Shown piece by piece: positions 34,414 through 52,863 of a stretch of 64,000 nucleotides of DNA. The DNA is from a virus. Numbering within the stretch: position 1 is the first letter of the stretch; the number at the start of each line of letters is the position of its first letter. The stretch lies in IMG/VR virus record IMGVR_UViG_3300045988_174665, one strand, 5' to 3'. Under the pieces are notes generated by a model, which had not been told where the DNA came from, ran no database searches, and was given only the letters and a program-made list of their open reading frames with translations. Made by a program: the position numbers and the translations under genes.

Positions 34414-34977
34414 TTAAAGGTCGTTAGGAATAAAAGTTTCCTCAACCTCGTCATTGGGGCGGTCAGAATACATAATAATCTCATCCAAGGTTAACGGAGT
34501 ATAATCAAAACCCTCCATCATACAACCACAATTATAAGCATTTTTTAATCCCATTAAATTAAAACATTTTGCAACTCTTTCAGCTTCTTTAGAATTATGC
34601 ACGTGACCATAAAGATGATATCCGCCGTAATGCATTCGGTTATAACTTAAAATTGGATAATGGCAAAGAACAACACTTCTACCATTATCAACCACCTCCA
34701 GATAAGAATGATATTCAACCTTTTCTTTTAACCACTTGCCATCGTGGTTGCCGCAGATTAAGATAATCTTTCCGTTTAATCGAGGAAGATAAGCAAGCAT
34801 ATCTTTTCTTTTCCAGAAGAAATCACCAAGAACATAAACAGTATCTTCGGGACTAACTGCTTTATTCCAGTTCTGAACCAAGGTTTCATTCATTTCTTCT
34901 ACTGAAGAAAAAGGTCTGTTATCAAATTTAATTGCATTTTCGTGTCCAAAATGGAGGTCAGAAATATAAAAATTCAT
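34414..34977 (-). CDS. calcineurin-like metallophosphoesterase
   Basis: DLHFGH, GDFF, GNHD and GHVH motifs. Confidence 0.8.
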   Translation of the reverse strand: MNFYISDLHFGHENAIKFDNRPFSSVEEMNETLVQNWNKAVSPEDTVYVLGDFFWKRKDMLAYLPRLNGKIILICGNHDGKWLKEKVEYHSYLEVVDNGRSVVLCHYPILSYNRMHYGGYHLYGHVHNSKEAERVAKCFNLMGLKNAYNCGCMMEGFDYTPLTLDEIIMYSDRPNDEVEETFIPNDL

Positions 34978-37974: not shown

Positions 37975-38901
37975 TTAATGTGCCAATACATCATAAGTAG
38001 AAATTACACTTAAATCTTTATAAATATTATTACCAATAAGGGCTTTGAATTTCTCTTTAGATGTCTGACTTTTTCTTAATCTTAATTCCATATGAAATTG
38101 AATTAAAACTGTTATATATAAATCTCTTTCGAGAATTGTTTTATACATATCGTGATGATAAGGAACTGTCGTTTTATTAACTAAATATGCGTATGCAGAA
38201 ACAAATTGATGGTTATAATAATGAGATATTCCTTTATCATCTTTAGTTTCCGTAAATATCTTTCCAATATCGTGATACTGTAAAACTTCTACAAGAATGT
38301 CTTTTTCATAATTTTCTTTTGCTAAAGTAGCCGCAGTATCCATATGTAATCCGATTGGAAAAGAATGATGTGGATTGTTATGATTGATTGTTCGTGAAAT
38401 ACTTAATAGACTATCTAAATCCTGTGTTGGCAAAAGGTTATTCTTATTTTGAATGATTCTAATATCATCCCAACCTTCATAGTAATAAGGAACAGTAAAA
38501 TGCTGTAGCTGTTTGTAAATTACTTCAGCTGGAACAACAACCTCTCGGGTTGAATCTGCTTTTCTTTTAAAAATTTCCTTTAAAGATGCAATTGCCACTA
38601 CACATATCTTTTTACACGGTATTTTTTCAATACTTTTTAAAAAGTGAACTCGTCTTTTAAAGCTGAGATTTGTTGCATCATAAATAACATTTTTGCCCTC
38701 TTTTAAATCCGCAATAACACGATTTCCTAACTTTGAAAAAATCTTTTGCGGGTTCGCTTGTATATTGGCATCACCATAAAGCTCCTTTCTAATAGCATCA
38801 GAGGAATGAATGACGCCATTATATTTAATTGCAATTTCTTTTGCTAAAGTTGACTTGCCGCTGTAGCTAAGTCCAACCATCATAATAAAATAATTCGTCA
38901 T
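37975..38901 (-). CDS. P-loop polynucleotide-kinase-like / HD phosphohydrolase fusion
   Basis: Walker A GLSYSGKST at the N-terminus; HHSFP...QYHDIGK HD motif in the C-terminal half. Confidence 0.7.
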   Translation of the reverse strand: MTNYFIMMVGLSYSGKSTLAKEIAIKYNGVIHSSDAIRKELYGDANIQANPQKIFSKLGNRVIADLKEGKNVIYDATNLSFKRRVHFLKSIEKIPCKKICVVAIASLKEIFKRKADSTREVVVPAEVIYKQLQHFTVPYYYEGWDDIRIIQNKNNLLPTQDLDSLLSISRTINHNNPHHSFPIGLHMDTAATLAKENYEKDILVEVLQYHDIGKIFTETKDDKGISHYYNHQFVSAYAYLVNKTTVPYHHDMYKTILERDLYITVLIQFHMELRLRKSQTSKEKFKALIGNNIYKDLSVISTYDVLAH

Positions 38902-38915
38902 TTCTCTTTCTCTCC

Positions 38916-39734
38916 TTAACCAAAATAACCACTATAATCTAAGATTACTGGCTGATTAGTTTTAAAATCAAAACCTACATTACCTGCGTGAATATCATTT
39001 ATATGCATCTCATTAATAAAAATGGACAATTCTTCAAAATCCTGCCAATTCAAGCGGTTCTGAAAAAGATTGTCAATTGCAATATTATCCCCAACCTCTC
39101 CTTTTTCAGATGGAGTTGACCAAGAAACCAGTGATGAGGGAGCCTTAGAACAGGGAGTACAAAAAACATAAGAACCTGTACAATATCCCTCTTCACTATC
39201 GTATCTCTGCTCGTGAGCATAATACTTTTCTACCTCTTCAGTGCAAACCCTTACTCTTTCAGAGATATAAAAAGGATAACCATAAAAATATCCTAAAAAA
39301 TAAGTTCCCGCAAAGCATTGCCTTACTTGTGAAAAATCAGCTTCCAGAATTTGAGTTAAGATAGCTTCTTTTTTACAATAATCAATTGCTTCTTTGTAGT
39401 CATCTTTAGTAAGATTATGATAATCTTTATTAAAGTTACTAATCAAATGAGAAGTATATTCCTCATTTGGAATTGTACAATTTCTTTCATCAGTAAAAGG
39501 AACTTTAATTACATAATCTTTACCAAACTGGTATTTTATAATAATAACCCCTTTTGTTGCCCCACTGTCACTTTCATACCAAGCGTTACCAGTTTCATAT
39601 CTTCCGAAAGCTTTCCTTTGCCAGTTATGAAAACTGGTACTTGTGCCATTAAGTATAAAAGTATCAAAAGAATACTTTTTTACCAAGTCTTCAATTACTT
39701 TTTTAAAAAATAAACGAACTTTATTTTCAATCAT
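38916..39734 (-). CDS. hypothetical protein, possible kinase-like fold
   Basis: C-terminal NDIHAGNVGFD...ILDYSG resembles the catalytic-loop/DxG of small-molecule kinases. Confidence 0.35.
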   Translation of the reverse strand: MIENKVRLFFKKVIEDLVKKYSFDTFILNGTSTSFHNWQRKAFGRYETGNAWYESDSGATKGVIIIKYQFGKDYVIKVPFTDERNCTIPNEEYTSHLISNFNKDYHNLTKDDYKEAIDYCKKEAILTQILEADFSQVRQCFAGTYFLGYFYGYPFYISERVRVCTEEVEKYYAHEQRYDSEEGYCTGSYVFCTPCSKAPSSLVSWSTPSEKGEVGDNIAIDNLFQNRLNWQDFEELSIFINEMHINDIHAGNVGFDFKTNQPVILDYSGYFG

Positions 39735-39766
39735 TCTTTTCTCGCCTTTCTTTATTTTCTATATAT

Positions 39767-39795
39767 ATTATATAAAAAATTTTTTAAAAAAACAA
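39767..39795 (-). promoter_or_regulatory. sigma70-type promoter
   Basis: Minus sense TTGTTT-17-TATAAT. Confidence 0.5.
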
Positions 39796-39798
39796 GTT

Positions 39799-40051
39799 TT
39801 AAAAAATTACCTGATATGAAACACCATAATTAATAATTGAACAAGATAAATCAATTTTATTTTTAAAAGCTATCTTAAATACCTGACATATAGAAGGAGG
39901 GAATAAGGAAAACTCTGGTGAATACTGAATATAGACCTTAAAAAATTTCAAAAATTTTCTGCTGTTTTTTAGGAGTGACTTTAAAGCAATCACCACCAAC
40001 CTCTTGTGTGAATATGTTTTTCTTTAAAAAAATATAATCTCCTATCTTCAT
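39799..40051 (-). pseudogene. small gene interrupted by a 1-nt frameshift in a T6 run
   Basis: MKIGDYIFLKKNIFTQEVGGDCFKVTPKKQQKIFEIF | KVYIQYSPEF...YQVIF. The frames join at plus-strand A6 39940-39945. ATGA overlap with the upstream gene. Confidence 0.4.
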
Positions 40052-40920
40052 TTTAATGCTCCTTTCTCCTTCATTTCTGTTAATCTTACTGCTACTTCTA
40101 CAGTTATAGTATCAAAATACTCAAGAAAAATCTGTTGCAAAAGTCCTGATGCGTTTTTTTCTGACCATTTTTTATCTGTGTCTAAAGTATAGGTTTTATC
40201 GTCTTCAAATAATTCTATCGAAGGAATCTCATAAAATTTTTCTGGCGACAAATCTTCTTTAAATATATTGATTAAATTATTAACATTAGAAAAAGTGATT
40301 GCTTTATATTCTTCTGCATTATATTTATATTCAAGAATCATGCGAGAAGAAAAACCAGAAAAATTTGTGTACATTTCTGAAATTGAGACACCGTCGAAAA
40401 TTGCAAATAACCAATTAATATGGTAAAAAACTCTATACCACTTTTGTTTGCAACGAGAACAACTAGTTATCATTCCCATCACTTGACGATAAAGAACAGA
40501 ATAATTTTGAAAAAATACCTGATTAACTTTTGATTTAAGCTGTTCGTAAAATTCTTTATATAATGGATTAACTCTTATTGTGCTACTTAGAATTGGTTCA
40601 AAATAGGTAAAATTTCCTTTAAAGAAACTTGTAATAAACTTTCTGATATCAACAGTCTTAATCTTTCCATTATTTACTACAAGCTCATGGCAATCAATCT
40701 GTTTGTTTAGACAAAATTCTTCATAGGTTGGAAAAATGACCGCCACAGCATCATAATCACTTAGATTTGTTGCTAATTCATAATTTTGACTGCCAATTAA
40801 AGATATAAAGAAAATTTCTCTGCCACCGTCGCTTAAAATTTTTTCATAACCCCTTAATATTGCATCTACTTTATCTGCATAGTCCTTATTTAACAGACTT
40901 ACCCTATCGTATCTATACAT
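40048..40920 (-). CDS. Pol-beta-superfamily nucleotidyltransferase (RNA-repair-associated type)
   Basis: LIGSQNYELATNLSDYD matches the GS..Y(G/E)....SD.D motif. Confidence 0.6.
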   Translation of the reverse strand: MYRYDRVSLLNKDYADKVDAILRGYEKILSDGGREIFFISLIGSQNYELATNLSDYDAVAVIFPTYEEFCLNKQIDCHELVVNNGKIKTVDIRKFITSFFKGNFTYFEPILSSTIRVNPLYKEFYEQLKSKVNQVFFQNYSVLYRQVMGMITSCSRCKQKWYRVFYHINWLFAIFDGVSISEMYTNFSGFSSRMILEYKYNAEEYKAITFSNVNNLINIFKEDLSPEKFYEIPSIELFEDDKTYTLDTDKKWSEKNASGLLQQIFLEYFDTITVEVAVRLTEMKEKGALK

Positions 40921-40949
40921 TTTTTCGCCCCTTTTTATTTTCTATATAT

Positions 40950-40978
40950 ATTATATAAAAAATTTTTTAAAAAAGCAA
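40950..40978 (-). promoter_or_regulatory. sigma70-type promoter
   Basis: Minus sense TTGCTT-17-TATAAT. Confidence 0.55.
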
Positions 40979-40979
40979 A

Positions 40980-41001
40980 AAAAGAGAGGTTAACCTCTCT
41001 T
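40980..41001. terminator. hairpin terminator
   Basis: AAAGAGAGG-TTAA-CCTCTCTTT. Confidence 0.55.
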
Positions 41002-42194
41002 TAATCGTGATGCTTAAGCAGATATTCTCTCGAAACATTTTTAAAGCTAAAATCAGTCTTTGGATTTCTCAATACAATTCCCTCTCTATATACAGAAGGA
41101 TTAACAACCGACTTCGCAGTCGCAACTTTCTTAAATTCGTCCAAATCTTTAGGAAGCTTATAATGAGCATCGAGAATTGGGACAAATTTCATTCCCATTT
41201 CATTTACCACCAATTGTGCCTCAGTAGAAGGTACTCTACCTCTGTCTGAACGAATAAAATTAAAGATGTATAAATCATCTTCTTTGAGCTTCAAAGGATT
41301 ACCTTGAACGCTGCCTACAGATTCGCCTTGAACACAAACATAATCAAGCTCAGGATTCTGTTTTAAATATGTTTCAAGTTGCTCTCTAATATGGTATTTA
41401 AAAGCCATATCCCAATAAATGTTATGGTCGTGATAGCAATTTTGTTTCTCATCTTTCTGTCTTATATTTCGAGAAAGAACATAAAATTCAAACTTATTTC
41501 TTCTCTTCTTTTTTCTTTCAAGAATATAAGTTGAAGAAGTACCGTCCAACTTCTCAGTTACAATCCAATCATCCTCATTATTAAGAATAAAGGGAATGTT
41601 CTCAACTCTCTCTTCGTCGGTTTTATGAATATAAGGGAAGTGAGTTGGAAAAGCCTTTGGACTATCTTTCTTTTTGCCCAAAAAGACAAAGAGAAGTTTT
41701 CTACCCCACTCCCTCTTCATAAGCCAACGGAATGGCTTCTTTTTCATAATATTTTTATGTCTTGCCGCCATTGACATATATTTAATATCTTTAGCTTTGT
41801 TAGCCTTACGAATATTATCATCTTGAGAAATATAAGTTACTCCAAGCTTCTGTCCAACATCAGAATGAAGTGGTAAATCTTTAAATTCTGGAAAAGCAGA
41901 CAGCGGCATTAGAAGTCCTTGTGAAATAACTTTACACATTCTTTGAGTCTTTACTTTAAAATTACGCTTTGCCATAAAAGTAAATCTCTCATCGTTGTCA
42001 GGAACTTTTGAGTCAATTTCAAAGTAAATACCTTTCTTTTTAGTTTCGTCATTAGGGTCAAAGTCGCCCTTTCCTACTACGCAATGCCAGCCACCAACAG
42101 TTGCTAATTCAACCCTATCGTAACCTTCCAATGGAGTGACCTTATCAACCTCTACAATATAAGCTAACATTCTCTCGCCTTTTTCGTTTAACAT
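41001..42194 (-). CDS. ATP-dependent RNA ligase (DRB0094-like)
   Basis: N-terminal OB-like AYIVEVDKVTPLEGYDRVELATVGGWHCVV; adenylyltransferase motif I TEKLDGTS. Confidence 0.8.
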   Translation of the reverse strand: MLNEKGERMLAYIVEVDKVTPLEGYDRVELATVGGWHCVVGKGDFDPNDETKKKGIYFEIDSKVPDNDERFTFMAKRNFKVKTQRMCKVISQGLLMPLSAFPEFKDLPLHSDVGQKLGVTYISQDDNIRKANKAKDIKYMSMAARHKNIMKKKPFRWLMKREWGRKLLFVFLGKKKDSPKAFPTHFPYIHKTDEERVENIPFILNNEDDWIVTEKLDGTSSTYILERKKKRRNKFEFYVLSRNIRQKDEKQNCYHDHNIYWDMAFKYHIREQLETYLKQNPELDYVCVQGESVGSVQGNPLKLKEDDLYIFNFIRSDRGRVPSTEAQLVVNEMGMKFVPILDAHYKLPKDLDEFKKVATAKSVVNPSVYREGIVLRNPKTDFSFKNVSREYLLKHHD

Positions 42195-42460
42195 TATACA
42201 TCATCCTTCCATTTTTTCGTTCTCATTTCAATAATATAATCTATTACTTTTTCATATTCTGTTTCTGTTAAAGAAAGTAGTGGCACGACTGTCTTATCAA
42301 AATTTGAAAAACCCGCCATTTTCATAAAGTCATTAACAAATTCTCCGATTACCCTATAGGTATCAATTCCCAATTCGGGGTATGTATCTCTTGATACTCT
42401 ACTCACTGTTTTAGAACCAATCTCATTGGTATTTTCATAGCTCATTTTTAACTTAATCAT
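42194..42460 (-). CDS. hypothetical protein
   Basis: ORF track. Confidence 0.45.
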   Translation of the reverse strand: MIKLKMSYENTNEIGSKTVSRVSRDTYPELGIDTYRVIGEFVNDFMKMAGFSNFDKTVVPLLSLTETEYEKVIDYIIEMRTKKWKDDV

Positions 42461-42698
42461 TTTTATAATCCTCCAACTTAACGAGTTTTAAAACTCGATA
42501 GACCTCGGGAGGTACAAAACCAAGTTTTTGCAAATCTTCATCCTTTTCTATTTGGTGGTATACAGAAATTCCATCTTCAAGAAAAACAATACTATCTCCT
42601 ACAATAAGTTCTGACCAATTAACAGCGTCACTTAATTCAAATAACTGACCGTCAATTTTTAAAACTATATTATCAAACTTTATTGGTCTGGTTATCAT
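42453..42698 (-). CDS. hypothetical protein
   Basis: Start moved to MITRPIK because the ORF-track N-terminus overlaps the promoter. Confidence 0.45.
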   Translation of the reverse strand: MITRPIKFDNIVLKIDGQLFELSDAVNWSELIVGDSIVFLEDGISVYHQIEKDEDLQKLGFVPPEVYRVLKLVKLEDYKND

Positions 42699-42729
42699 TT
42701 TAAAACTCCTTTTCTTATTTTCTATAAAT

Positions 42730-42758
42730 ATTATATAGAATTTTTTTAAAAAAAGCAA
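42730..42758 (-). promoter_or_regulatory. sigma70-type promoter
   Basis: Minus sense TTGCTT-17-TATAAT. Confidence 0.55.
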
Positions 42759-42759
42759 A

Positions 42760-44412
42760 TTATAAATATTGTTTAATTAACTCAGAAAAGTTTCTTAAAA
42801 AATGAATCGAAATGGTGTCTTTTTGTAGGGCCGCTGTTCGCTGTATATCCCAAGCATTTTTAATGCCTGCCTGAGATTGCTGCGTTGGATAAAGTATTTC
42901 TGGAGTTGTAATAGTAACTCGAACCAATTTAGATAAATTTTTTTCTTTTGTATAATCTGTAATTGCCCGATAAATTAAATATAAGAAAAAGGACAAGGGA
43001 ATTAATATACCGTTCAAGTTCATAATGTGAATAGCATTTGTGGTTGTTTCTTTAAAATCTCCAATAGAAGAGGCATCGTCAAATAATAAATATGCCACAT
43101 CCTGAGCTAATAAACGGCTTAAATCTTCTTTATAATTTTCTTGATTACCAATTGCCCCTTTTCCTAATTGTAAAATTGCTCCAACCACATAAACAAAATT
43201 TTTATCTATATTAGAGAAAATTTCTTTAAAAGAATCCATTTTAATAGCTGTGCCGGCGGAGTAACCTCTCTTAGAAAAGTTTTCATTTAAGGTATATAAT
43301 TTAGAAGAACTATAAACAATAAAGCCATTATTAATTTTATCTAATCTCTGTCTTAAAATTTCAAATGCTCTATTATTATCCACATAATTACCTAAAGAGT
43401 TTTCTTTTGTAATTTTTTCTATAGCGTCTTTATCTATACCATAAGTATAAATATTATCCGCTTTAATCTTTTTCTCTCCAGAACCAATTCCTTCAATTTT
43501 GTATCCTTGATTTTTATTGTTTTGTAACATAAAGATGAAGTTTTCCAAAAATTCTTGTTCTAAACCGCCTTGACCAGCCGCTGTCTGCATAGCAACTTTG
43601 TTCTTTCTAGTGTTACCCAAAATCGCCTGTTTACAACTCATTAAGCTAACTCCTCTTTTACTTTTACTTTCTTTAATTCTCTTTTTAATTGAATTTTTAA
43701 TTTTATCAACTTGATACACTTGGCACATATTCCGCACGAAGGGGTTGGTGGCAGCCTTGCCTCTATATTTTTCTAAAGCTTCTACAACTTCGGCATAAGC
43801 GTTAGAATAATCTTTCCCAGTTTTATTTAATCCATTTTCTTGATTAGCACTGAATTGTAAAATTAAAGCTTCTTGTACAATTTCTGGCATTACCTCGTCA
43901 ATTACATTTTCAATTGCTGAATTAATTTTTACTCCTTTTTTAATTTGACTAATAATTTTTCGAGAAATTTTTCCCTCATATTTATCCCAAACCTTACCAA
44001 AATAAGTGCCAAAAAAGGCAGTAACTGTTTTTTGTCCCTTGGTATTCTTTATTAAGGCTACATTTCTTTCATAAACTTTTTTTAAGTTCATCGTTTCATT
44101 AAGAAGCTCAATTATTTTCTTTGCTCCATCTGCGGAGGCTGTCGAATCTTTTACTCCCCTTCCTACATTAATACCATAAACTTTTCTTAAAAGGGCTTTT
44201 TCTTTCTTTTCTTCATTTTGAGCTAGTCTTAATAATTGCTTGGCAGCGGTGACGTCTTCTGAACCCAGAGCATTTCTGAATTTACCACCGTCCCTCAAAT
44301 TTCTTTTAATTGTATCGTAAGTTTTTCTATAAGTCGGTCCACTGTCTTTTAATCTTTCGTAAAAAACATACATACTAGACAAAGAGCGACTTTGTATGTC
44401 TAAAGCTGGCAT
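42760..44412 (-). CDS. large hypothetical protein
   Basis: ORF track, 550 aa, GGAGG RBS; no motif recognised. Confidence 0.55.
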   Translation of the reverse strand: MPALDIQSRSLSSMYVFYERLKDSGPTYRKTYDTIKRNLRDGGKFRNALGSEDVTAAKQLLRLAQNEEKKEKALLRKVYGINVGRGVKDSTASADGAKKIIELLNETMNLKKVYERNVALIKNTKGQKTVTAFFGTYFGKVWDKYEGKISRKIISQIKKGVKINSAIENVIDEVMPEIVQEALILQFSANQENGLNKTGKDYSNAYAEVVEALEKYRGKAATNPFVRNMCQVYQVDKIKNSIKKRIKESKSKRGVSLMSCKQAILGNTRKNKVAMQTAAGQGGLEQEFLENFIFMLQNNKNQGYKIEGIGSGEKKIKADNIYTYGIDKDAIEKITKENSLGNYVDNNRAFEILRQRLDKINNGFIVYSSSKLYTLNENFSKRGYSAGTAIKMDSFKEIFSNIDKNFVYVVGAILQLGKGAIGNQENYKEDLSRLLAQDVAYLLFDDASSIGDFKETTTNAIHIMNLNGILIPLSFFLYLIYRAITDYTKEKNLSKLVRVTITTPEILYPTQQSQAGIKNAWDIQRTAALQKDTISIHFLRNFSELIKQYL

Positions 44413-44423
44413 AATTCCTCCTA

Positions 44424-44450
44424 TAAAAAAAGAGCGTTATTCACGCTCTT
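44424..44450 (-). terminator. intrinsic terminator
   Basis: AAGAGCG-loop-CGCTCTT hairpin followed by T7 in the minus sense. Confidence 0.6.
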
Positions 44451-44481
44451 ATGTATATAAAACAGCCTCTATTGAAGCCGA

Positions 44482-45243
44482 TTAGGACAATTGTACAACC
44501 TCGTCCAGTAATAAAGTCATATTGGAAGTTAATGGTTGGTTTGCGTGGAAATGCCCACAATACCAATGTGTGAAAGTAATTTTATCATAAACCTCTTCTA
44601 AAAATTCTTCCATAGAAGTATCCGCTTCTCCATAATTAAAAGGAAGAAATAATTCTGTGGGTTCATATTTAAGTGGACAAGTATGACTAAAAATATAATC
44701 ATATGAGTTATTTTTTGAAATAATTTCAAAAATTTCCTTTTTCTTCTCTTCATCCATTTGTTCATCGGGATACCAATATCCCCTTTTATGAACTACTCTC
44801 CAATATTTATCAATTGAATACGCCCCACCAAGTACAAGACACTTTTTCCCTAAAATTGTAATTACTCCATCATCAGGGAATAAAATATTAGAATACTTTT
44901 TTTCTACCCAACAATTACATTTTAAATCTCCTCTACATTGAATTTTTTGATAAGAAGGAATATGCTCGGGGCGGCAATCGTGATTACCTTGAATACAAAT
45001 TAAAGTAATTGGTAAATTACTAATTTTTTGCTTAATCTTTTCTCTATAAGACTTACTTTTATCTATAAGAGGCTCTCCCCATTTTAAACCAGTATTCATT
45101 TCATCATAAATATATCCATAATTGATTCCAGTATCACCCAAAAGAATTAAATAATCTTCTTTAGTGGTATTATTTTCCCTGCAAAATTGAGGTAAAAAGC
45201 CAAACTGACCGTGAGTATCCCCTCTTACAAAAATTCTTCCCAT
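44482..45243 (-). CDS. Ser/Thr-phosphatase-type metallophosphoesterase
   Basis: GDTHGQ, LGDTG, GNHD and GHFH motifs. Start moved to MGRIFVRGD because the ORF-track N-terminus overlaps tRNA-Gln. Confidence 0.8.
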   Translation of the reverse strand: MGRIFVRGDTHGQFGFLPQFCRENNTTKEDYLILLGDTGINYGYIYDEMNTGLKWGEPLIDKSKSYREKIKQKISNLPITLICIQGNHDCRPEHIPSYQKIQCRGDLKCNCWVEKKYSNILFPDDGVITILGKKCLVLGGAYSIDKYWRVVHKRGYWYPDEQMDEEKKKEIFEIISKNNSYDYIFSHTCPLKYEPTELFLPFNYGEADTSMEEFLEEVYDKITFTHWYCGHFHANQPLTSNMTLLLDEVVQLS

Positions 45244-45288: not shown

Positions 45289-45363
45289 TGGCAGCGGAGA
45301 AGAGAATCGAACTCCTACCCGTTGGGTCAAAGCCAACTGTACTAACCGTTATACTACTCCGCT
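45289..45363 (-). tRNA. tRNA-Gln(TTG)
   Basis: Full cloverleaf, anticodon loop CTTTGAC, GGAGTTCGATTCTC T-arm, encoded CCA. Confidence 0.85.
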
Positions 45364-45999
45364 ATATTTAATTTAATAACTTATTTTAGCCATATAAAGA
45401 CCTTCGCCTTACTTTGATTTAGTTTTCTTCTATATTCAGCCACTAAGAAAACATACTTGAGCCTTGGGGAGCTACCCCAAAACGATATGCCCTATACCTC
45501 TTTAGAGGCAACTAAGCTTAGAAGGGAATGATTACCCTTAACTTTCACCCACCATCCAAAAAATATAATATCTTTTTAACATAAAAGGTATTTTCATCAT
45601 TGTTTTTCTATTTACGGTATTGAGCTACTCGCACATTAAACTTGCCTTATAGTTAAGTTACCTTAACATCACTACCACACCCCTTATTTGAGTTACTAAG
45701 GTTTGCTAATTTCTCAGGTTAGCCTAACTTAGCTTATTCTTTCACTGAAAGCGTCTATTACGGAGCGGACAAGAATTTGCCTTTAAAAGCAACTAATCAA
45801 GCACATCTTTCCCACCAAGAAGACCCGTCTTTTATCTCCGCCCTTATTAGGTCACCCTAATAAGTTCTCGTTGATTTAAAGTATCCTTAAAATCCTTACT
45901 AATTGGAATTATTGGAAAGATTCTCGGCACGATGGCATTCGTCTTCACCGAGGTTTATATGATTAAAATAAACTATTAAATTTTCAAGGTACAATTAAA
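45364..45999 (-). ncRNA. 636-nt ORF-free structured spacer (candidate large ncRNA)
   Basis: No ORF in either strand. Many local helices: TTGGGG/CCCCAA, CTTATTAG/CTAATAAG, AAGGG/CCCTT, CTCGG/CCGAG, GTTAAG/CTTAAC. Visibly richer in G+C than the flanking DNA. Confidence 0.35.
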
Positions 46000-46073
46000 T
46001 GGAGTGGATAAAGGGAATCGAACCCTCATCCTCGGTTTGGAAGACCAATGTTTTACCATTAAACTATATCCAC
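46000..46073 (-). tRNA. tRNA-Gly(TCC)
   Basis: Cloverleaf, anticodon loop CTTCCAA, U73, CCA. Confidence 0.85.
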
Positions 46074-46109
46074 ATTTATTACCTTAAATTTTATAAGGCA
46101 AAATAAATT

Positions 46110-46349
46110 TTAATCTTCTTTAATCTCTGGCTCAATAATAATAAAATCTCTTATCTTCATCCAGATATCATTTTCACTTTCTACCCACAGCTCATTAAAT
46201 TCAAGAGCGTGCAAAGCACCTAAAACAGATTTTGCATTAACACAAAAACCATTACTATCCTTTACCACGATTTTACCCTCAAGCTGTGAAGTAATATGAG
46301 CAAAATTAATTGCATCACTTGAAGTATCTAATCTAATCTTTGCTCTCAT
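46110..46349 (-). CDS. HPr-like domain protein lacking the catalytic His
   Basis: ...VNAKSVLGALHALEF... matches the HPr vnaKSimglmsLg core. The GLHARPA site is replaced by TSSDAINFA. Confidence 0.4.
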   Translation of the reverse strand: MRAKIRLDTSSDAINFAHITSQLEGKIVVKDSNGFCVNAKSVLGALHALEFNELWVESENDIWMKIRDFIIIEPEIKED

Positions 46350-46384
46350 TTTTTTTATCCTTCCTTTCTTAACTTTCTATAAAT

Positions 46385-46413
46385 ATTATATAGAAATTTT
46401 AAAAGATTTTCAA
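46385..46413 (-). promoter_or_regulatory. internal promoter
   Basis: Minus sense TTGAAA-17-TATAAT. Confidence 0.55.
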
Positions 46414-46417
46414 ATTT

Positions 46418-46494
46418 TGGTGCTCTTGAAAGGATTCGAACCTTCACTTGATAGAGCCTAAATCTATTGCCTCTTCCAATTGGGCTACAAGAGC
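46418..46494 (-). tRNA. tRNA with anticodon TAG (Leu codon CUA) but a short variable loop
   Basis: GCTCTTG/CAAGAGC acceptor, stem ATAGA/TCTAT, loop TTTAGGC, 5-nt variable loop CAAGT, A73, CCA. Confidence 0.7.
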
Positions 46495-46615
46495 ATATAA
46501 AGCTTTTAATTAAGCGAATACATTTTTCAGTATTACTTTAAATGCGGAGGCTATCAAATCTCACTTCCCTCACATACTTAATTTGGCGATTTGACCTAAC
46601 CATAAGCTTTTTTAA

Positions 46616-46689
46616 TGGAGATACTATTTGGAATTGAACCAAAAATCAAGCTTTTGCAGAGCCTTGCCTTACCATTTGGCTATAGTATC
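46616..46689 (-). tRNA. tRNA-Cys(GCA)
   Basis: Anticodon loop CTGCAAA, U73, CCA. Confidence 0.85.
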
Positions 46690-46692
46690 ATA

Positions 46693-46768
46693 TGGAGCTT
46701 CTAGTCAGATTCGAACTGACGGTCTTTGGATTACTAAACCAATGCTTTACCAACTAAGCTACAGAAGC
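46693..46768 (-). tRNA. tRNA with anticodon AGT (Thr-like) and a U31-U39 mismatch
   Basis: 76 nt in standard register; loop TTAGTAA gives A34-G35-U36. Confidence 0.6.
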
Positions 46769-46953
46769 ATAATCTTATTGTCTAGACTTTGACCACACTT
46801 AATGTTTGGATAAGATACTCAAACTTGGGTTTACCTATATCGTCGCTCCCTCAAACCACGGAGTATTTTTCGATTATACTCAACGCCTTCTTTCATCGCC
46901 CAAATATGGCAGGTATTTATTCCATTATTATAATTTTAAAATTATAATATAAT

Positions 46954-47037
46954 TGGTAGGAGAGGATGGATTCGAACCATCGAAGCGAAACGCAACAGAT
47001 TTACAGTCTGCCCCTTTTACCACTCAGGAACTCTCCT
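46954..47037 (-). tRNA. tRNA-Tyr(GTA)
   Basis: Loop CTGTAAA, long variable arm GCG-TTT-CGC, A73, CCA. Confidence 0.85.
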
Positions 47038-47113
47038 TGGTGTGCCATCGGAGATTCGAACTCCGGACTTCTTGATTAAAAGTCAAGTATTCTACCAACT
47101 GAATTAATGGCAC
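47038..47113 (-). tRNA. tRNA-Lys(TTT)
   Basis: Loop CTTTTAA, perfect cloverleaf, abuts tRNA-Tyr. Confidence 0.9.
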
Positions 47114-47252
47114 AAATTTAATAAGAATGACACTCTTTGCTTGTATATTCGCAATGACCATCTCATTCTTATCTTTAAATTACTTAAAACCAGAGGGTGA
47201 CAATCCTCATTTCCATAAAGGCGATAGATGCCCGTTCTATCCTTGGTTTTAA

Positions 47253-47329
47253 TGGTGCTCTTAGATAGGATTGAACTATCAACCTCTCACTTATAAGGTG
47301 AGTGCTCTAACCAACTGAGCTATAAGAGC
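47253..47329 (-). tRNA. tRNA-Ile(TAT)
   Basis: Stem CTCAC/GTGAG, loop CTTATAA, A73, CCA. Confidence 0.8.
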
Positions 47330-47637
47330 ATTTAAACTAAATAAGACGCATCTTATTTAGTTAGGCTTTATCCGCAGAATCAGCCGCAATTCATCATTTT
47401 AGTCTTACAAACCCACTTACTAAGACTTGCTTTGATTTCGTTCAAAGGTTTTTCTAAAGCGGTTACGCCAATTTTTTAAAATTGGAAAAACTAATTAAAT
47501 TAATTAGACAGAGAATCTTCTCTTTTTTAAGAATAGATATAATACTGGTAATTTACATCCGCTTTTAGTTATTTCTTCTTTTAAAGAAATCCCTTCAATT
47601 ACAGTCCTATTGCGGCAAGGGCTAACAGTATTTTTAG

Positions 47638-47705
47638 GGGAAGCAACGAGGCTTGAACTCGTACCAATCCTAGGAATTATTCTAACCAATTGAAACTATA
47701 CTTCC
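47638..47705 (-). ncRNA. 68-nt tRNA-like RNA with a 13-nt mini anticodon arm
   Basis: Acceptor GGAAGTA/TGCTTCC, D-arm with AATTGGTTA loop, T-arm ACGAG-TTCAAGC-CTCGT. Only AATTC-CTA-GGATT sits where the anticodon arm should be. No encoded CCA. Confidence 0.5.
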
Positions 47706-47734
47706 CTTAACAGTCAACTTAATCATTGACTTAA

Positions 47735-47810
47735 TGGCTCTTACAGCAGGACTCGAACCTGCAACTCTCTGATTAACAGTCAGATGCTCTACCGATTGAA
47801 CTATGTAAGA
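47735..47810 (-). tRNA. tRNA-Asn(GTT)
   Basis: Loop CTGTTAA, U1-A72, G73, CCA. Confidence 0.9.
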
Positions 47811-48192
47811 ATATTTAAAGGTGCAGGGATAGCCTAACCCCACATCGAGCAGGAAAACACCAAGAATTTTTCTGCTCATTGTTTAAGCATCCCGACCAGT
47901 TTCTCGGTAACTGCGGCCAAGGCTTCCTTTTCGTTATATCCCGTTAGTAGAAACCATCAATTTTTCTTCTAAGGCAGATAACTCCAGTACTGCACTAACT
48001 TCTGGATATACGTTCAAGCAAGTATCACTTACCAAGTTTAACGACATTGACAAGTCGGCTAGATTAGATATAGAATTTTAATCTATACCCTACATATGGG
48101 AAGGACAATGACCTGGCTGTTTTTACTCTATAGGTTTCAGCCTAACTATTAGAGTAAGGAATCTCATCTTTCTGAGGCGTCACATTGTCCTC
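47811..48192 (-). ncRNA. 382-nt ORF-free structured spacer (candidate ncRNA)
   Basis: Long nested helices in the minus sense, e.g. GGACAATG..AC / GT..CATTGTCC, TTACTCTA.TAG / CTATAGAGTAA, TATAGA/TCTATA. Confidence 0.35.
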
Positions 48193-48273
48193 TGGAGCAG
48201 ATGAAGAGAATCGAACTCCTGCTATCAGTTTCAGTTCGGAGAACTGATGTACTAACCACTATACTACATCTGC
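48193..48273 (-). tRNA. aberrant tRNA (loop TCTCCGA, C33; 10-nt variable region)
   Basis: Good acceptor, D- and T-arms (body paralogous to tRNA-Gln). Anticodon stem TCAGT/ACTGA, with the ACTGA strand duplicated. Confidence 0.55.
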
Positions 48274-48285
48274 ATATAAGATAAT

Positions 48286-48361
48286 TGGCTGTTCATTGGA
48301 GATTCGAACTCCAGACCACCGTGTACACCAGTAGCTCTTCCTAACTGAGACTTAATGAACA
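48286..48361 (-). tRNA. aberrant tRNA-like gene without a regular anticodon arm
   Basis: TGTTCAT/ATGAACA acceptor, G73, CCA, T-arm TGGAG-TTCGAAT-CTCCA. The central ACTGGTGTACACGGTGG gives only a weak TACTG/CGGTG stem with loop GTGTACA. Confidence 0.5.
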
Positions 48362-48729
48362 ATATATTATAAATACTAGATTCAGATAAGCAAGACTTTA
48401 CAAATCTCTAGAATATCCGTGAAATAATCGTTATGTCTGCAGAACATATAATTATTTCATCCTACTTATCTGGTAAGCTTTCTTGGGCGAGATGAACTTA
48501 CTAACTCTACCTTAGAATAAAAATAGCATCTAACATCATTTTATCCCTCTATAGAGATTTACTTAAATTTTAGTTATACAAGCAGCCCGTGTTTACCGTT
48601 ACACTAACAACCGCATATATTGCCTTGCTTGTGATATAAGCTCTGCAAAGCATAGAGTTTGTATCGTACCACTCAATCCCTTATTTATTCGCTTTATTTT
48701 AGGTATCTAATAATTGCGATTAGATTTAC

Positions 48730-48820
48730 TGGCGGCGAGGGTGAGATTCGAACTCACACACCTCTTTCCAGCTACTAACAGTTTAGCAAACTGCTTCCTT
48801 ACCATTAGGATTACCTCGCC
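48730..48820 (-). tRNA. tRNA-Ser(GCT)
   Basis: Loop TTGCTAA, long variable arm, G73, CCA. Confidence 0.9.
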
Positions 48821-48822
48821 AT

Positions 48823-48950
48823 ATGGCTAGAGTGGTTGGACTCGAACCAACTTATATTCGGAAATTTAAAGTTCTTATAATATAGATTAAAAGTCTATTC
48901 CTAATGGGTAGAAGGATGAACCTCAACAGCCGAATATTTATTTAACTTAC
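48823..48950 (-). ncRNA. signature hairpin RNA unit A (followed by an orphan T-arm and ..GCCA tail)
   Basis: P1 ATATTCGG/CCGAATAT, GGCU, UUCAUCCUUCUA, then GTTGG-TTCGAGT-CCAAC-CACTCTAGCCA. Own promoter upstream. Confidence 0.5.
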
Positions 48951-48957
48951 ATTAAAT

Positions 48958-48986
48958 ATTATAGCATATATTTTATTATTTGTCAA
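48958..48986 (-). promoter_or_regulatory. internal promoter for unit A
   Basis: Minus sense TTGACA-17-TATAAT with an extended TGC. Confidence 0.6.
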
Positions 48987-49014
48987 ATATTTTTTATTAT
49001 TTAAAATTTGTTCG

Positions 49015-49148
49015 ATGCGGTAATTTTAACATCTACATAATACTATTGCACTACCAACTGTGCTACATCCCGCTTTAATGGGATGGTGGGAATCGAACCC
49101 ACATCACATAGTCCCCTGATATAGAAGGATGATGTTAGTCAGCCGCAT
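49015..49148 (-). ncRNA. signature hairpin RNA unit B carrying a permuted tRNA-like domain (YrlA-like architecture)
   Basis: P1 ATGCGG/CCGCAT and P2 TAACATC/GATGTTA, with GGCU and AUCAUCCUUCUA. The inner module at 49042-49112 has a T-arm, a capped 6-bp acceptor helix, U8-A9 and a D-arm with GG, closed by ACTAT/ATAGT. Confidence 0.6.
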
Positions 49149-49197
49149 ATTTTTTATATTGTGGAAATTTGTTTCTCTAAAATCTTAATCCCAAATC

Positions 49198-49240
49198 AAG
49201 TGCTTGTTAGCGTAGAAGGATGAAAAACAATAGCCACTTT
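49198..49240 (-). ncRNA. signature hairpin RNA unit C
   Basis: AAGTG/CACTT and UGUU/AACA helices; loop UUUCAUCCUUCUACGCU. Confidence 0.45.
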
Positions 49241-49250
49241 GAGAAAGAGA

Positions 49251-49313
49251 TGTGGGAATTTAATGCTCTTTTAAAACCGTTTATTATATAGAAGGATGAG
49301 CATTACAGCCACA
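49251..49313 (-). ncRNA. signature hairpin RNA unit D
   Basis: P1 TGTGG/CCACA, P2 TAATGCTC/GAGCATTA; the loop starts AUCCUUCUA. Confidence 0.5.
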
Positions 49314-49324
49314 AATTATAAATA

Positions 49325-49418
49325 GTGGAAATCGGACTTTCTATCTTATTATTATGGAGGTGGCTAAACCACCGAAATTCTTTTTTTTTCTTAGAAGGAA
49401 GAAAGTCCATAGCCACAA
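49325..49418 (-). ncRNA. signature hairpin RNA unit E
   Basis: P1 GTGG/CCAC, P2 GGACTTTCT/AGAAAGTCC, variant UUCCUUCUA, inner hairpin GGTGG-TTTAG-CCACC. Confidence 0.5.
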
Positions 49419-49440
49419 TAACTTCATTTTATTTCACAAA

Positions 49441-51720: not shown

Positions 51721-51748
51721 TATAATTAATCTCCTTTATTTTAATTTG

Positions 51749-51820
51749 TCGGTAATAATTGAAACTATTTTTAAGACTTAAATTTTCTTTTTATAGAAGG
51801 AAGTTTCAATATAGCCGTTA
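51749..51820 (-). ncRNA. signature hairpin RNA unit F (in the 5' leader of the 759-aa ORF)
   Basis: GGCU, P2 ATTGAAACT/AGTTTCAAT, variant CUUCCUUCUA. Ends about 12 nt before the ORF's RBS. Confidence 0.45.
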
Positions 51821-51897
51821 GGAAAAATTGATGGGAATTTTACACTCTATTCTTATAGCAAAAAGTTTTAGAAGGATGAATATTTTCAGCCACCAAC
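51821..51897 (-). ncRNA. signature hairpin RNA unit G
   Basis: TTGGTGG/CCATCAA pairing, GGCU, UUCAUCCUUCUA. Confidence 0.45.
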
Positions 51898-51940
51898 TTG
51901 AATGAAGGTTGAGTTATTGTCATTATACCTACAATATGAC

Positions 51941-52017: not shown

Positions 52018-52020
52018 ATA

Positions 52021-52840: not shown

Positions 52841-52863
52841 AAAATCTTCCTTTCATTTTAAAT

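What the first reader, a model, noticed from the sequence alone, without database searches (positions are those of the whole stretch)
37975..45243. RNA-repair gene set placed immediately next to the tRNA island
Within 7 kb on the same strand as the tRNAs, the sequence encodes:
- a P-loop kinase fused to an HD phosphohydrolase (GLSYSGKST; HD).
- a kinase-like protein.
- a Pol-beta-type nucleotidyltransferase (GS..Y.....SD.D).
- a DRB0094-type RNA ligase (EKLDGTS).
- a lambda-phosphatase-type metallophosphatase (GDTHG/GNHD/GHFH).

A second metallophosphoesterase lies at 34414.

Established knowledge: T4 Pnk plus Rnl1 heal and seal tRNA cut by the host anticodon nuclease PrrC. Bacterial Pnkp/Hen1 and related cassettes combine the same activities.

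Inference: the phage combines three measures into one counter-defence module against tRNA-targeting immunity. These are tRNA repair, tRNA replacement (the island, including aberrant-anticodon species) and a possible Ro/Y-RNA-like RNA quality-control RNP.
Basis: partly seen in the sequence, partly recalled or inferred. Interest (0 to 1): 0.65.

Follow-up and report, generated by a model that had tools for sequence, protein, structure and literature searches.

The report
Phage tRNA-repair cassette beside tRNA island
Right after its block of 16 tRNA genes and a ROOL RNA, this metagenome-only phage encodes an RNA end-healing kinase/phosphatase, a nucleotide-adding enzyme, an RNA ligase and two metallophosphatases, which together look like a kit for mending cut tRNA: a well-known kind of phage counter-measure, not a new one.

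Summary
All five enzyme genes exist at the stated coordinates on the minus strand, with the quoted motifs. They begin 46 nt after the last tRNA of a 16-tRNA island.

The enzymes are:
- a Pnk-HD fusion with a T4-Pnk/CthPnkp-like kinase and an intact HD motif set
- a divergent RlaP-like Pol-beta nucleotidyltransferase
- an Rnl5-type (NgrRnl/DraRnl) RNA ligase
- two metallophosphoesterases

Comparative genomics supports one RNA heal-and-seal pathway. In 35 of 50 species genomes, Pnk-HD lies next to RlaP, an Rnl1-type ligase or an Rnl5-type ligase. Sister phages carry a T4 Rnl1-type ligase where this phage has Rnl5.

The counter-defence role is inferred, not shown.

The "kinase-like" ORF (272 aa) and a 550-aa ORF inside the interval are conserved neighbours of unknown function. 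They are not core repair genes.

The "Ro/Y-RNA" idea is only half right. No Ro/TROVE protein was detected. There is a full-length ROOL RNA, and a covariation-supported YrlA-like RNA next to a conserved 759-aa protein of unknown function.

Verdict: a new member of a known kind. The surrounding RNA elements are the more unusual part.

The parts
37975..38901 (-). Pnk-HD: N-terminal polynucleotide 5'-kinase fused to a C-terminal HD phosphohydrolase (308 aa)
   Evidence: Pfam AAA_33 6.2e-16. phrog_505 polynucleotide kinase. A profile of 35 homologues hits the CthPnkp kinase domain at 2e-22, T4 Pnk at 3.7e-7 and the region 243-374 of PDB 3wfp ('Poly A polymerase') at 2.3e-7. Many ~40%-identical full-length homologues carry PF01966 HD. 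Invariant residues are K16 S17 D35 R38 D75 R119 in the kinase and H179 H210-D211 H227 H231 H270 D304 in the HD domain.
38916..39734 (-). 272-aa protein of unknown function (B family). The motif pattern resembles a minimal protein-kinase-like fold.
   Evidence: No Pfam, PHROG, NCBIfam, PADLOC or PDB hit. The family is large: 2879 representative clusters. Invariant residues are G58 K61 K77 D247 N252 D266; E123 and H249 are nearly invariant. The AF2 model is unusable at pLDDT 42. It lies next to Pnk-HD or RNA ligase in many phage loci, but in only 1 of 50 genome loci.
40048..40920 (-). Divergent RlaP-like Pol-beta nucleotidyltransferase (290 aa)
   Evidence: Pfam RlaP 23.7 bits against a cut-off of 23. 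phrog_388 nucleotidyltransferase. Invariant residues G43 S44, S54 D55 x D57, D91 across 10 homologues. Relatives lie adjacent to Pnk-HD in 18 of 50 genomes.
41001..42194 (-). Rnl5-type ATP-dependent RNA ligase (N-terminal OB domain plus nucleotidyltransferase domain, 397 aa)
   Evidence: Pfam PHA02142 and RNA_ligase. phrog_968 1e-56. TIGR02306 3e-22, below its equivalog cut-off. Naegleria NgrRnl 5cot 4e-33, with KLDG, SRN, QGE, REG(I/L)V and FSFK aligned.
42194..42460 (-). 88-aa ORF, unknown function
   Evidence: Conserved at 97% only in the close relative L001. One weak, sub-threshold Pfam hit.
42453..42758 (-). Small ORF, unknown function. Probably 81 aa from the internal ATG, as called in L001.
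   Evidence: No family hit.
42760..44412 (-). 550-aa protein of unknown function (G family). Conserved just downstream of tRNA islands in a clade of roughly 100-120 kb phages.
   Evidence: 56 homologues, none with a Pfam domain. The AF2 model has pLDDT 79.9: a helical N-terminal half and an alpha/beta C-terminal half. No PDB fold match. Only uncharacterised virome proteins match in BFVD. Absent from 50 Pnk-HD genome loci.
44482..45243 (-). Calcineurin/lambda-phosphatase-type metallophosphoesterase (253 aa from the ATG at 45243)
   Evidence: Pfam Metallophos 4.9e-11. phrog_1649 3.3e-25. RBS GAGAGGAGAAAGGA precedes the ATG, and the longer TTG-initiated ORF overlaps tRNA-Gln. Homologues lie near Rnl5 in L047/L048 and L188.
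34414..34977 (-). Second metallophosphoesterase (187 aa)
   Evidence: phrog_547 6.4e-48. Weak PdeM-like hit. Homologues sit inside RlaP-PnkHD-MPE-Rnl5 operons in L188 and L195, and directly after RlaP-PnkHD at the end of the L194 contig.
45289..53090 (-). Island of 16 tRNA genes, all with encoded CCA
   Evidence: ARAGORN, Rfam, 3' ends read directly.
45379..45976 (-). ROOL RNA, full length. tRNA-Gly lies 23 nt upstream and tRNA-Gln 15 nt downstream.
   Evidence: Rfam RF03087 301.6 bits against a gathering score of 99.1, model positions 1-574 of 574.
49011..49151 (-). YrlA-like structured RNA: closing stem, invariant UCAUCCUUC, and a permuted tRNA-like module
   Evidence: Rfam YrlA 37 bits, below its gathering score of 69, E 1.7e-6. 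RNAalifold on 9 copies gives 28 pairs, 18 of them with compensatory changes. Own covariance model scores 146.9 bits.
49441..51720 (-). 759-aa protein of unknown function inside the tRNA island, flanked by the Y-like and short hairpin RNAs
   Evidence: phrog_33734, unknown function, 6e-95. No Pfam or PDB hit, even with a profile. Ten homologous loci were found, 8 of them with the Y-like RNA downstream.

Best explanation
The region encodes an RNA heal-and-seal pathway.

Proposed steps:
1. A broken RNA has a 2',3'-cyclic or 3'-phosphate end and a 5'-OH end. Many anticodon nucleases leave such ends.
2. The HD domain of Pnk-HD, and/or the two metallophosphoesterases, dephosphorylate the 3' end.
3. 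The kinase domain of Pnk-HD phosphorylates the 5' end.
4. If nucleotides were trimmed, the RlaP-like nucleotidyltransferase extends the 3'-OH by one or two nucleotides.
5. The Rnl5-type ligase seals the break.

The cassette follows directly after the phage's own tRNA island. The most likely biological role is to keep translation running during infection when tRNAs are cleaved, most likely by host defence nucleases. This complements tRNA replacement by the island.

What is shown: the enzyme families, intact catalytic motifs, and conserved co-location of these families.

What is inferred: the order of the steps, tRNA as the substrate, and the counter-defence purpose.

The 272-aa and 550-aa ORFs are lineage-specific neighbours whose role is unknown.
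For: Family assignments with intact active-site residues.

Neighbourhood evidence:
- In 50 species genomes found by searching for Pnk-HD relatives, 35 have an RlaP-like NTase (18), an Rnl1-type ligase (14) or an Rnl5-type ligase (6) within the 8-kb flanks. In most cases the neighbour is directly adjacent.
- L188 has all five enzyme families of this window within about 4.7 kb.
- L003 has an Rnl5-like ligase, RlaP-like NTase and Pnk-HD in the same order.
- Eleven sister-phage loci carry G-B-PnkHD followed by a T4 Rnl1-type ligase instead of Rnl5. This is non-orthologous displacement in the same module.
- L002 has a HAD_SAK_2 phosphatase where this phage has the metallophosphatase.

Literature:
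- RlaP adds 1-2 NMP to RNA 3'-OH ends and restores function of over-damaged tRNA (PMC12776372).
- CthPnkp and lambda phosphatase have 2',3'-cyclic phosphodiesterase activity (PMC2190708, abstract seen).
- NgrRnl seals nicks whose 3'-OH strand is RNA (PMC4408790, abstract seen).
- Phage repair sets that combine ligase, Pnk, phosphoesterase, RlaP and tRNAs are described for jumbo phages (PMC7824862).
Against: - There is no biochemical or genetic evidence for these proteins.
- Characterised Rnl5 enzymes seal nicks in duplexes, not anticodon loops, so tRNA-loop repair by this ligase is uncertain.
- Runella HD-Pnk, the nearest characterised HD/Pnk fusion, also heals DNA ends.
- The RlaP assignment sits at the Pfam threshold (23.7 against 23 bits).
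- The ligase scores below the TIGR02306 equivalog cut-off (79 against 151 bits).
- Terminator-like hairpins lie after the metallophosphatase and after the ligase, so the genes may not form one operon.
- Only 5 of 50 Pnk-HD genome loci have 3 or more tRNAs nearby. Adjacency to a tRNA island is therefore not a general property of the cassette.
Confidence: 0.7

Rival explanations
1. The enzymes process the phage's own RNAs rather than repairing damage. Examples would be maturing or joining the tRNA-flanked ROOL RNA, the Y-like RNAs or the phage tRNAs.
For: The cassette starts 46 nt after tRNA-Gln. ROOL is wedged between two tRNAs, with gaps of 23 and 15 nt. Among 60 ROOL lineages, a core repair gene lies within 10 kb downstream in 6 of 38, against 0 of 36 upstream.
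Against: Pnk-HD/RlaP/ligase clusters occur in 35 of 50 genomes with no ROOL (0 of 50) and usually no tRNA array. All 16 tRNAs already encode CCA, and ARAGORN and Rfam call each as a single continuous, full-length gene. Most ROOL loci show no repair gene in the available flank.
Confidence: 0.08
2. The enzymes act on DNA ends or nucleotides, for example phage genome end processing, DNA nick repair or nucleotide-signal degradation. In that case the link to tRNA is coincidental.
For: Runella HD-Pnk heals DNA as well as RNA ends (PMC6097658, citing Munir and Shuman 2017). The 187-aa phosphoesterase weakly resembles the DNA-ligase-associated PdeM. Calcineurin-like phosphodiesterases in phages are also proposed to degrade cyclic nucleotide signals (PMC7824862).
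Against: The ligase belongs to the RNA-specific Rnl5 family. Sister phages use Rnl1-type RNA ligases. The kinase profile is closest to RNA-repair Pnkp and to the tRNA-dependent kinase PSTK. RlaP acts on RNA and not on other macromolecules (PMC12776372).
Confidence: 0.07
3. The genes are independent accessory genes that happen to accumulate in a variable region after the tRNA island. They do not cooperate.
For: Terminator-like hairpins split the region. Unrelated ORFs (G, E, F, B) are interspersed. The ligase and RlaP genes lie between G and B only in this phage and its close relative L001.
Against: The same enzyme families recur next to each other in independent genomes, in different orders and with analogous substitutions.
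Confidence: 0.1

Closest known systems
Bacteriophage T4 Pnk + Rnl1 tRNA repair (counter to PrrC)
   Same: A 5'-kinase with the T4-Pnk-type active-site pattern (K16 S17 D35 R38 ... R119). 3'-end healing plus an ATP-dependent RNA ligase, encoded by a phage that also carries tRNAs. Sister phages of this one use an Rnl1-type ligase.
   Different: The phosphatase is an HD domain plus separate metallophosphoesterases, not the HAD domain of T4 Pnk. The ligase is Rnl5, not Rnl1. An RlaP-like NTase is present in the cluster. No cognate host nuclease is known.
Runella slithyformis HD-Pnk / ligase repair cluster (Munir and Shuman 2017; PMC6097658)
   Same: A bifunctional HD phosphoesterase plus P-loop polynucleotide kinase, encoded next to an ATP-dependent ligase.
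   Different: The domain order is reversed (kinase N-terminal, HD C-terminal). No Tpt1 or MTase-HIT genes are present. It is a phage element of Bacillota, not a Bacteroidota chromosomal cluster.
Bacterial Pnkp/Hen1 (Clostridium thermocellum)
   Same: The kinase domain is the closest solved relative (4gp7, profile E 2e-22). A lambda-phosphatase-type metallophosphoesterase is used for 3' healing.
   Different: Here the activities are separate polypeptides. No Hen1 methyltransferase was found among the cassette ORFs. The ligase family differs. TIGR04075 scores 34.7 bits against a cut-off of 750.
RlaP-containing RNA repair operons (Burroughs and Aravind 2016; PMC12776372)
   Same: A Pol-beta NTase with GS / DxD / D residues, encoded beside an RNA ligase and end-healing enzymes.
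   Different: It is very divergent from the characterised Pseudomonas RlaP, matching at the Pfam threshold with no PDB sequence hit. Its partner is a 5'-phosphate ligase rather than RtcB.
Rnl5 ligases DraRnl / NgrRnl
   Same: N-terminal OB domain plus nucleotidyltransferase domain. Motifs I, Ia, III, IV and V are conserved.
   Different: It has a roughly 55-aa basic insert between the domains, shared with phrog_968 phage ligases. About 30% identity. Substrate untested.
Jumbo-phage RNA repair repertoires (Iyer et al. 2021, PMC7824862)
   Same: The same logic: tRNAs plus ATP-dependent ligases, Pnk, phosphoesterases and RlaP.
   Different: The genome is about 110 kb, not jumbo. HD and calcineurin-type phosphatases are the rarer choice. 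The cassette abuts a ROOL RNA.
Rsr (Ro60) / YrlA RNP
   Same: An RNA with a closing stem and a permuted tRNA-like module. It matches YrlA model positions 23-85 and lies beside a large conserved protein gene.
   Different: The protein shows no TROVE or vWA signature. The RNA scores below the Rfam gathering score. It carries an invariant UCAUCCUUC motif and comes with arrays of short hairpin variants.

Membership tests
Polynucleotide 5'-kinase (T4 Pnk / CthPnkp clade) | P-loop GxxxxGK(S/T), catalytic Asp and phosphate-binding Arg residues | tested here: met
   G10, G15-K16-S17, D35, R38, D75 and R119 are invariant in 35 homologues. Profile hits: CthPnkp kinase 2e-22, Pnkp1 5.4e-10, T4 Pnk 3.7e-7.
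Polynucleotide 5'-kinase (T4 Pnk / CthPnkp clade) | Phosphorylates 5'-OH RNA/DNA ends | not testable with these tools
   Needs an enzyme assay.
HD phosphohydrolase | H...HD...H...H...D metal-binding motif set | tested here: met
   H179, H210-D211, H227, H231, H270 and D304 are invariant. PF01966 hits many ~40%-identical full-length homologues. The profile hits region 243-374 of PDB 3wfp ('Poly A polymerase') at 2.3e-7 and Cas3-HD weakly. The window protein itself does not reach a Pfam HD hit.
Runella-type HD-Pnk | N-terminal HD domain, C-terminal kinase domain | tested here: not met
   The order here is kinase (aa 1-150) then HD (aa 170-308).
Rnl5 RNA ligase (DraRnl/NgrRnl) | N-terminal OB domain plus NTase domain with KxDG and motifs Ia, III, IV, V; no C-terminal OB | tested here: met
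   PHA02142 OB 5.2e-17 and RNA_ligase 8.9e-17. NgrRnl 4e-33 with the motifs aligned, and the alignment ends at the C terminus.
Rnl5 RNA ligase (DraRnl/NgrRnl) | NCBIfam TIGR02306 equivalog score | tested here: not met
   79 bits against a cut-off of 151.15. It is a homologue, not a curated equivalog.
RlaP (PF10127) | Pfam gathering score | tested here: inconclusive
   23.7 bits against 23. Relatives score 27, 19 and 18 bits or have no hit.
RlaP (PF10127) | Pol-beta NTase catalytic residues (hG[GS], DxD, third carboxylate) | tested here: met
   G43 S44, D55 x D57 and D91 are invariant in 10 homologues.
RlaP (PF10127) | Gene neighbourhood with RNA ligase and end-healing enzymes | tested here: met
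   The window itself. Also L003 and 18 of 50 Pnk-HD genome loci.
Calcineurin-like metallophosphoesterase | DxH / GD / GNH(D/E) / H / GHxH motifs | tested here: met
   GDTHG, LGDTG, GNHD and GHFH are read in the ORF. Pfam 4.9e-11. The second enzyme carries DLHFGH, GDFF, GNHD and GHVH and hits phrog_547.
Bacterial Pnkp/Hen1 system | Kinase-phosphatase-ligase in one polypeptide plus Hen1 2'-O-methyltransferase | tested here: not met
   The polypeptides are separate. TIGR04075 scores 34.7 against 750 bits. No methyltransferase was found among the ORFs scanned from 29 to 64 kb.
Ro60/Y RNA RNP | TROVE-domain (Ro/Rsr) protein | tested here: not met
   No TROVE or vWA hit for the cassette ORFs or the 759-aa ORF, singly or as a profile.
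Ro60/Y RNA RNP | Y RNA (YrlA, RF02553) | tested here: inconclusive
   37 bits against a gathering score of 69, and only the tRNA-like module (model 23-85) matches. The structure itself is supported by covariation.
ROOL RNA (RF03087) | Full-length match above the gathering score | tested here: met
   301.6 bits against 99.1, model positions 1-574 of 574.
Protein-kinase-like fold (for the 272-aa ORF) | Recognisable homology or fold match to a PK-like kinase | tested here: inconclusive
   The motif pattern is suggestive: SGATKG, VIKVP, E123, NDIHAGN, DYSG. However, there is no Pfam or PDB hit, hhalign against the PKA catalytic core gives probability 0.5%, and the AF2 model has pLDDT 42.

The most novel reading that the evidence does not exclude
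The repair enzymes may be only one arm of an integrated 'translation-apparatus protection' locus. In that reading the tRNA island, the ROOL nanocage RNA, the YrlA-like RNA and the arrays of UCAUCCUUC hairpins work together with three proteins conserved in these phages whose fold or function is unknown (759 aa, 550 aa, 272 aa). The RNAs could act as decoys for, or scaffolds against, host RNA-targeting defences. This would amount to a Ro-independent phage RNP and would give ROOL its first functional context.
Probability: 0.12. Interest if true: 0.8.

Novelty: new member of a known kind. Interest (0 to 1): 0.42.

Why it matters
On its own the cassette adds another, compositionally distinct, example of phage RNA heal-and-seal systems: Pnk-HD in kinase-first order, an Rnl5 ligase, an RlaP-like NTase and two metallophosphoesterases. 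It also shows that the Pnk-HD family, which is widespread in Bacillota and their phages and has not been characterised biochemically, is a reliable marker of RNA-repair operons.

The wider locus is more useful. It places an uncharacterised protein trio and at least three structured RNA types (ROOL, skipping-rope, a YrlA-like RNA with hairpin arrays) in one syntenic block with tRNAs and repair enzymes. That gives experimentalists a defined genetic context in which to test what ROOL and these RNAs do.

Tried and rejected
1. The 550-aa ORF as a hidden ligase or nuclease.
- The AF2 model is good (pLDDT 79.9).
- Foldseek finds nothing in the PDB (best E 0.7) and only unnamed virome proteins in BFVD.
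- Its homologues often sit beside PhoH, ClpP and tail genes.
- It is absent from 50 Pnk-HD genome loci.
- Conclusion: not a core repair component.

2. The 272-aa ORF as a demonstrable kinase.
- No Pfam or PDB hit for the family.
- hhalign against PKA is negative.
- The model is unusable.
- It is linked to repair genes in the G-bearing phage clade (20 loci) and in about 5 of the 23 loci found by searching for its own relatives (L045-L067).

3. A general ROOL-to-repair association.
- Loci found by searching for a conserved ROOL motif (112 confirmed as ROOL), pooled with the earlier ROOL-bearing loci, gave 139 ROOL loci in 60 clusters.
- A repair gene lies downstream in 6 of 38 clusters against 0 of 36 upstream (Fisher two-sided p = 0.025).
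- The upstream side is mostly tRNA island, the phages are related, and ROOL is absent from all 50 Pnk-HD genome loci.
- Conclusion: suggestive only.

4. Ro/TROVE identity for the 759-aa ORF. Nothing was found by Pfam, PHROG annotation, PDB phmmer or a PDB profile search.

5. Near or distant DNA matches, and a tblastn of the 550-aa protein, in GenBank phages. None found.

6. CCA-addition as the job of the NTase. This is unnecessary for maturation, because all 16 tRNAs encode CCA.

8. The Burroughs and Aravind 2016 paper is not held. It is cited only through PMC7824862 and PMC12776372.

Full report
**Observation**

The interval 37975-45243 lies on the minus strand of a low-GC (about 30%) phage region. 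Tail-fibre, baseplate and CHAP-lysin genes lie upstream at 54-64 kb.

- Pnk-HD, 37975-38901
- an unassigned 272-aa ORF, 38916-39734
- a Pol-beta NTase, 40048-40920
- an RNA ligase, 41001-42194
- a metallophosphoesterase, 44482-45243
- a second phosphoesterase, 34414-34977

Three ORFs in the interval were not mentioned: 550 aa (42760-44412), about 81-101 aa (42453-42758) and 88 aa (42194-42460).

ARAGORN and Rfam find 16 tRNAs at 45289-53090 on the same strand. tRNA-Gln ends 46 nt before the RBS-preceded ATG of the metallophosphatase.

There is no near-identical DNA in GenBank phages. Close relatives exist only in metagenomes: L001 is a 109.6-kb contig with the same gene order, and the 550-aa protein is 98% identical to one on a 110.9-kb contig.

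**Identity of the enzymes**

*Pnk-HD*
- The kinase domain hits the Clostridium thermocellum Pnkp kinase domain.
- As a 35-sequence profile it hits CthPnkp at 2e-22, the tRNA-dependent kinase PSTK at 8e-14, Pnkp1, and T4 Pnk at 3.7e-7.
- Invariant residues K16, S17, D35, R38, D75 and R119 reproduce the Pnk active-site pattern.
- The C-terminal half gives no Pfam hit on its own. Many 40%-identical full-length homologues carry PF01966.
- H179, H210-D211, H227, H231, H270 and D304 are invariant.
- The profile reaches region 243-374 of PDB 3wfp, deposited as 'Poly A polymerase', at 2.3e-7. I take this to be the HD region of a class-II CCA/poly(A)-polymerase-type enzyme, from my own knowledge.
- This is therefore a kinase-first Pnk-HD. 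The characterised Runella HD-Pnk has the opposite domain order (PMC6097658).

*Ligase*
- It is an Rnl5-family enzyme with an N-terminal OB domain plus an NTase domain.
- It matches Naegleria NgrRnl at 4e-33, with the KLDG, SRN, QGE, REG(I/L)V and FSFK motifs aligned.
- It scores below the TIGR02306 equivalog cut-off.

*NTase*
- It sits at the RlaP Pfam threshold (23.7 against 23 bits).
- It keeps GS / DxD / D invariant across ten relatives.

*Metallophosphoesterases*
- Both carry the full motif set.

**Do they work together?**

Three independent neighbourhood samples say yes.

1. Fifty species genomes found by searching for Pnk-HD relatives.
- 35 have an RlaP-like NTase (18), an Rnl1-type ligase (14) or an Rnl5-type ligase (6) within the 8-kb flanks, in most cases directly adjacent.
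- L188 and L195 carry RlaP-PnkHD-MPE(34414-type)-Rnl5. L188 adds the 44482-type MPE. L194 carries RlaP-PnkHD-MPE and then its contig ends.

2. L003 carries an Rnl5-like ligase, an RlaP-like NTase and Pnk-HD in the window's order.

3. Eleven sister-phage loci carry the block G-B-PnkHD followed by a T4 Rnl1-type ligase (PF09511) instead of Rnl5. L002 has a HAD_SAK_2 phosphatase in the phosphatase slot.

Analogous displacement of both ligase and phosphatase is what a conserved heal-and-seal function predicts.

Published work supports each step:
- RlaP adds one or two NMP to RNA 3'-OH ends and rescues over-trimmed tRNA (PMC12776372).
- Lambda-phosphatase-type enzymes open 2',3'-cyclic phosphates (PMC2190708).
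- NgrRnl needs an RNA 3'-OH strand (PMC4408790).
- Phage sets of tRNAs, ligase, Pnk, phosphoesterase and RlaP are already described, with HD and calcineurin-type phosphatases as the rarer variants (PMC7824862).

**What remains inferred**

- tRNA as the substrate and counter-defence as the purpose rest on analogy with T4 Pnk/Rnl1 versus PrrC, and on position next to the tRNA island.
- Characterised Rnl5 ligases seal duplex nicks, not anticodon loops.
- Terminator-like hairpins follow tRNA-Gln, the metallophosphatase and the ligase, so there may be several transcription units.
- Only 5 of 50 Pnk-HD genome loci have 3 or more tRNAs nearby.
- All 16 tRNAs encode CCA, so the NTase is not needed for tRNA maturation.

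**The unassigned ORFs**

*The 550-aa protein (G)*
- It has 56 full-length homologues without any Pfam domain.
- The AF2 model is confident (pLDDT 79.9) but has no PDB fold match. It matches only unnamed virome proteins in BFVD.
- In the 33 IMG/VR loci, as in the ENA and Logan loci fetched first, it follows a tRNA island wherever enough upstream flank is held.
- It is often followed by the 272-aa protein (B) and Pnk-HD.
- It is absent from the 50 genome loci.

*The 272-aa protein (B)*
- It belongs to a large family of 2879 representative clusters.
- Its invariant residues look like a minimal protein-kinase-like pattern.
- No Pfam, PDB or hhalign test confirmed this, and the model failed.

I treat both proteins as lineage-specific neighbours of unknown role.

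**The 'Ro/Y RNA' part**

- No Ro/TROVE protein is detectable.
- The large structured RNA next to the cassette is a full-length ROOL RNA (45379-45976, 301.6 bits). It sits between tRNA-Gly and tRNA-Gln, with gaps of 23 and 15 nt.
- ROOL is known to lie near tRNA islands in phages and to form an RNA-only nanocage of unknown function (PMC5737381, PMC12286853). The papers I could search do not link it to RNA repair.
- Across 60 ROOL lineages, a core repair gene lies within 10 kb downstream in 6 of 38, against 0 of 36 upstream. This is suggestive but confounded by relatedness and by the tRNA-rich upstream side.
- Separately, a YrlA-like RNA does exist at 49011-49151. Rfam matches only its tRNA-like module (37 bits, below gathering).
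- Nine copies from related phages support 28 pairs, 18 of them with compensatory changes.
- It follows a conserved 759-aa protein of unknown function in 8 of 10 homologous loci.
- Short hairpin variants carrying the invariant UCAUCCUUC flank that gene on both sides.

**Verdict**

The RNA-repair reading is well supported at the level of enzyme families and conserved neighbourhoods. It is a new member of a known kind of phage system. The Ro claim fails on the protein side. The surrounding ncRNA-rich locus (ROOL, Y-like RNA, hairpin arrays, three conserved unknown proteins) is where any real novelty would lie.

Noticed in passing
window 45379-45976 (-): A full-length ROOL RNA lies between tRNA-Gly (23 nt upstream) and tRNA-Gln (15 nt downstream). 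This suggests release by tRNA processing enzymes. The same arrangement is found in L001, while the spacing is looser in L004 and L008.
   Followed up: partly
window 49011-49151 (-); L233-L242: A YrlA-like RNA (closing stem plus permuted T-arm, acceptor-like stem and D-arm) has strong covariation: 18 of 28 pairs are compensatory. It is conserved downstream of homologues of the 759-aa ORF, often in two copies.
   Followed up: partly
window 48852-48938, 49155-49242, 49246-49317, 49319-49421, 51743-51823, 51825-51898 (-): Arrays of short hairpins share the closing stem and the motif of the Y-like RNA and flank the 759-aa ORF on both sides. TCATCCTTCTA occurs 5 times on the minus strand against 0.03 expected. 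The motif resembles the 3' tail (anti-Shine-Dalgarno region) of 16S rRNA; this comparison is from my own knowledge and was not tested. Similar elements occur in other tRNA-island loci (L068, L095, L101, L169, L228).
   Followed up: partly
window 49441-51720 (-): A 759-aa protein inside the tRNA island (phrog_33734, unknown function). Its C-terminal part reads like a TerD-type motif (HSGD...G...EF.DVD), but this is by eye only and no Pfam hit supports it.
   Followed up: partly
window 47185-47251 (-): A skipping-rope RNA (RF02924, 44.3 bits against a gathering score of 36.7) lies between tRNA-Lys and tRNA-Ile. A sub-threshold drum-like hit lies at 52430-52535. Related loci carry drum, DUF3800-I, DUF3800-XI and skipping-rope RNAs in their tRNA islands.
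   Followed up: no
window 46693-46768 and 47253-47329 (-): tRNA-Thr(AGU) and tRNA-Ile(UAU) are unusual anticodons for bacteria. There are also two tRNA-Gly(UCC). All 16 tRNAs encode CCA.
   Followed up: no
L001:8418-9098 versus window 39735-40047: The close relative has an extra 226-aa gene (no PHROG hit) between the NTase and the 272-aa ORF. The window has a 313-nt non-coding gap at that position.
   Followed up: no
L002:7441-8178: The called 245-aa gene downstream of the ligase contains in-frame stop codons under table 11. It may be a pseudogene or a recoded gene. The L002 neighbourhood also carries NAPRTase and NAD synthase.
   Followed up: no
L020:12900-14267: In one sister phage locus the Pnk-HD ORF found by the mechanical ORF listing is 455 aa, with extra sequence beyond the usual ~300-aa Pnk-HD; in sister loci (L021-L027, L036) it is 307-336 aa. 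It lies directly upstream of an Rnl1-type ligase.
   Followed up: no
window 32585-33769 (-): A 394-aa protein with a DUF7666 domain and long GG-x-x-A-K-L-(I/V) beta-helix-like repeats. It has weak hits to gp5 C-terminal repeats.
   Followed up: no
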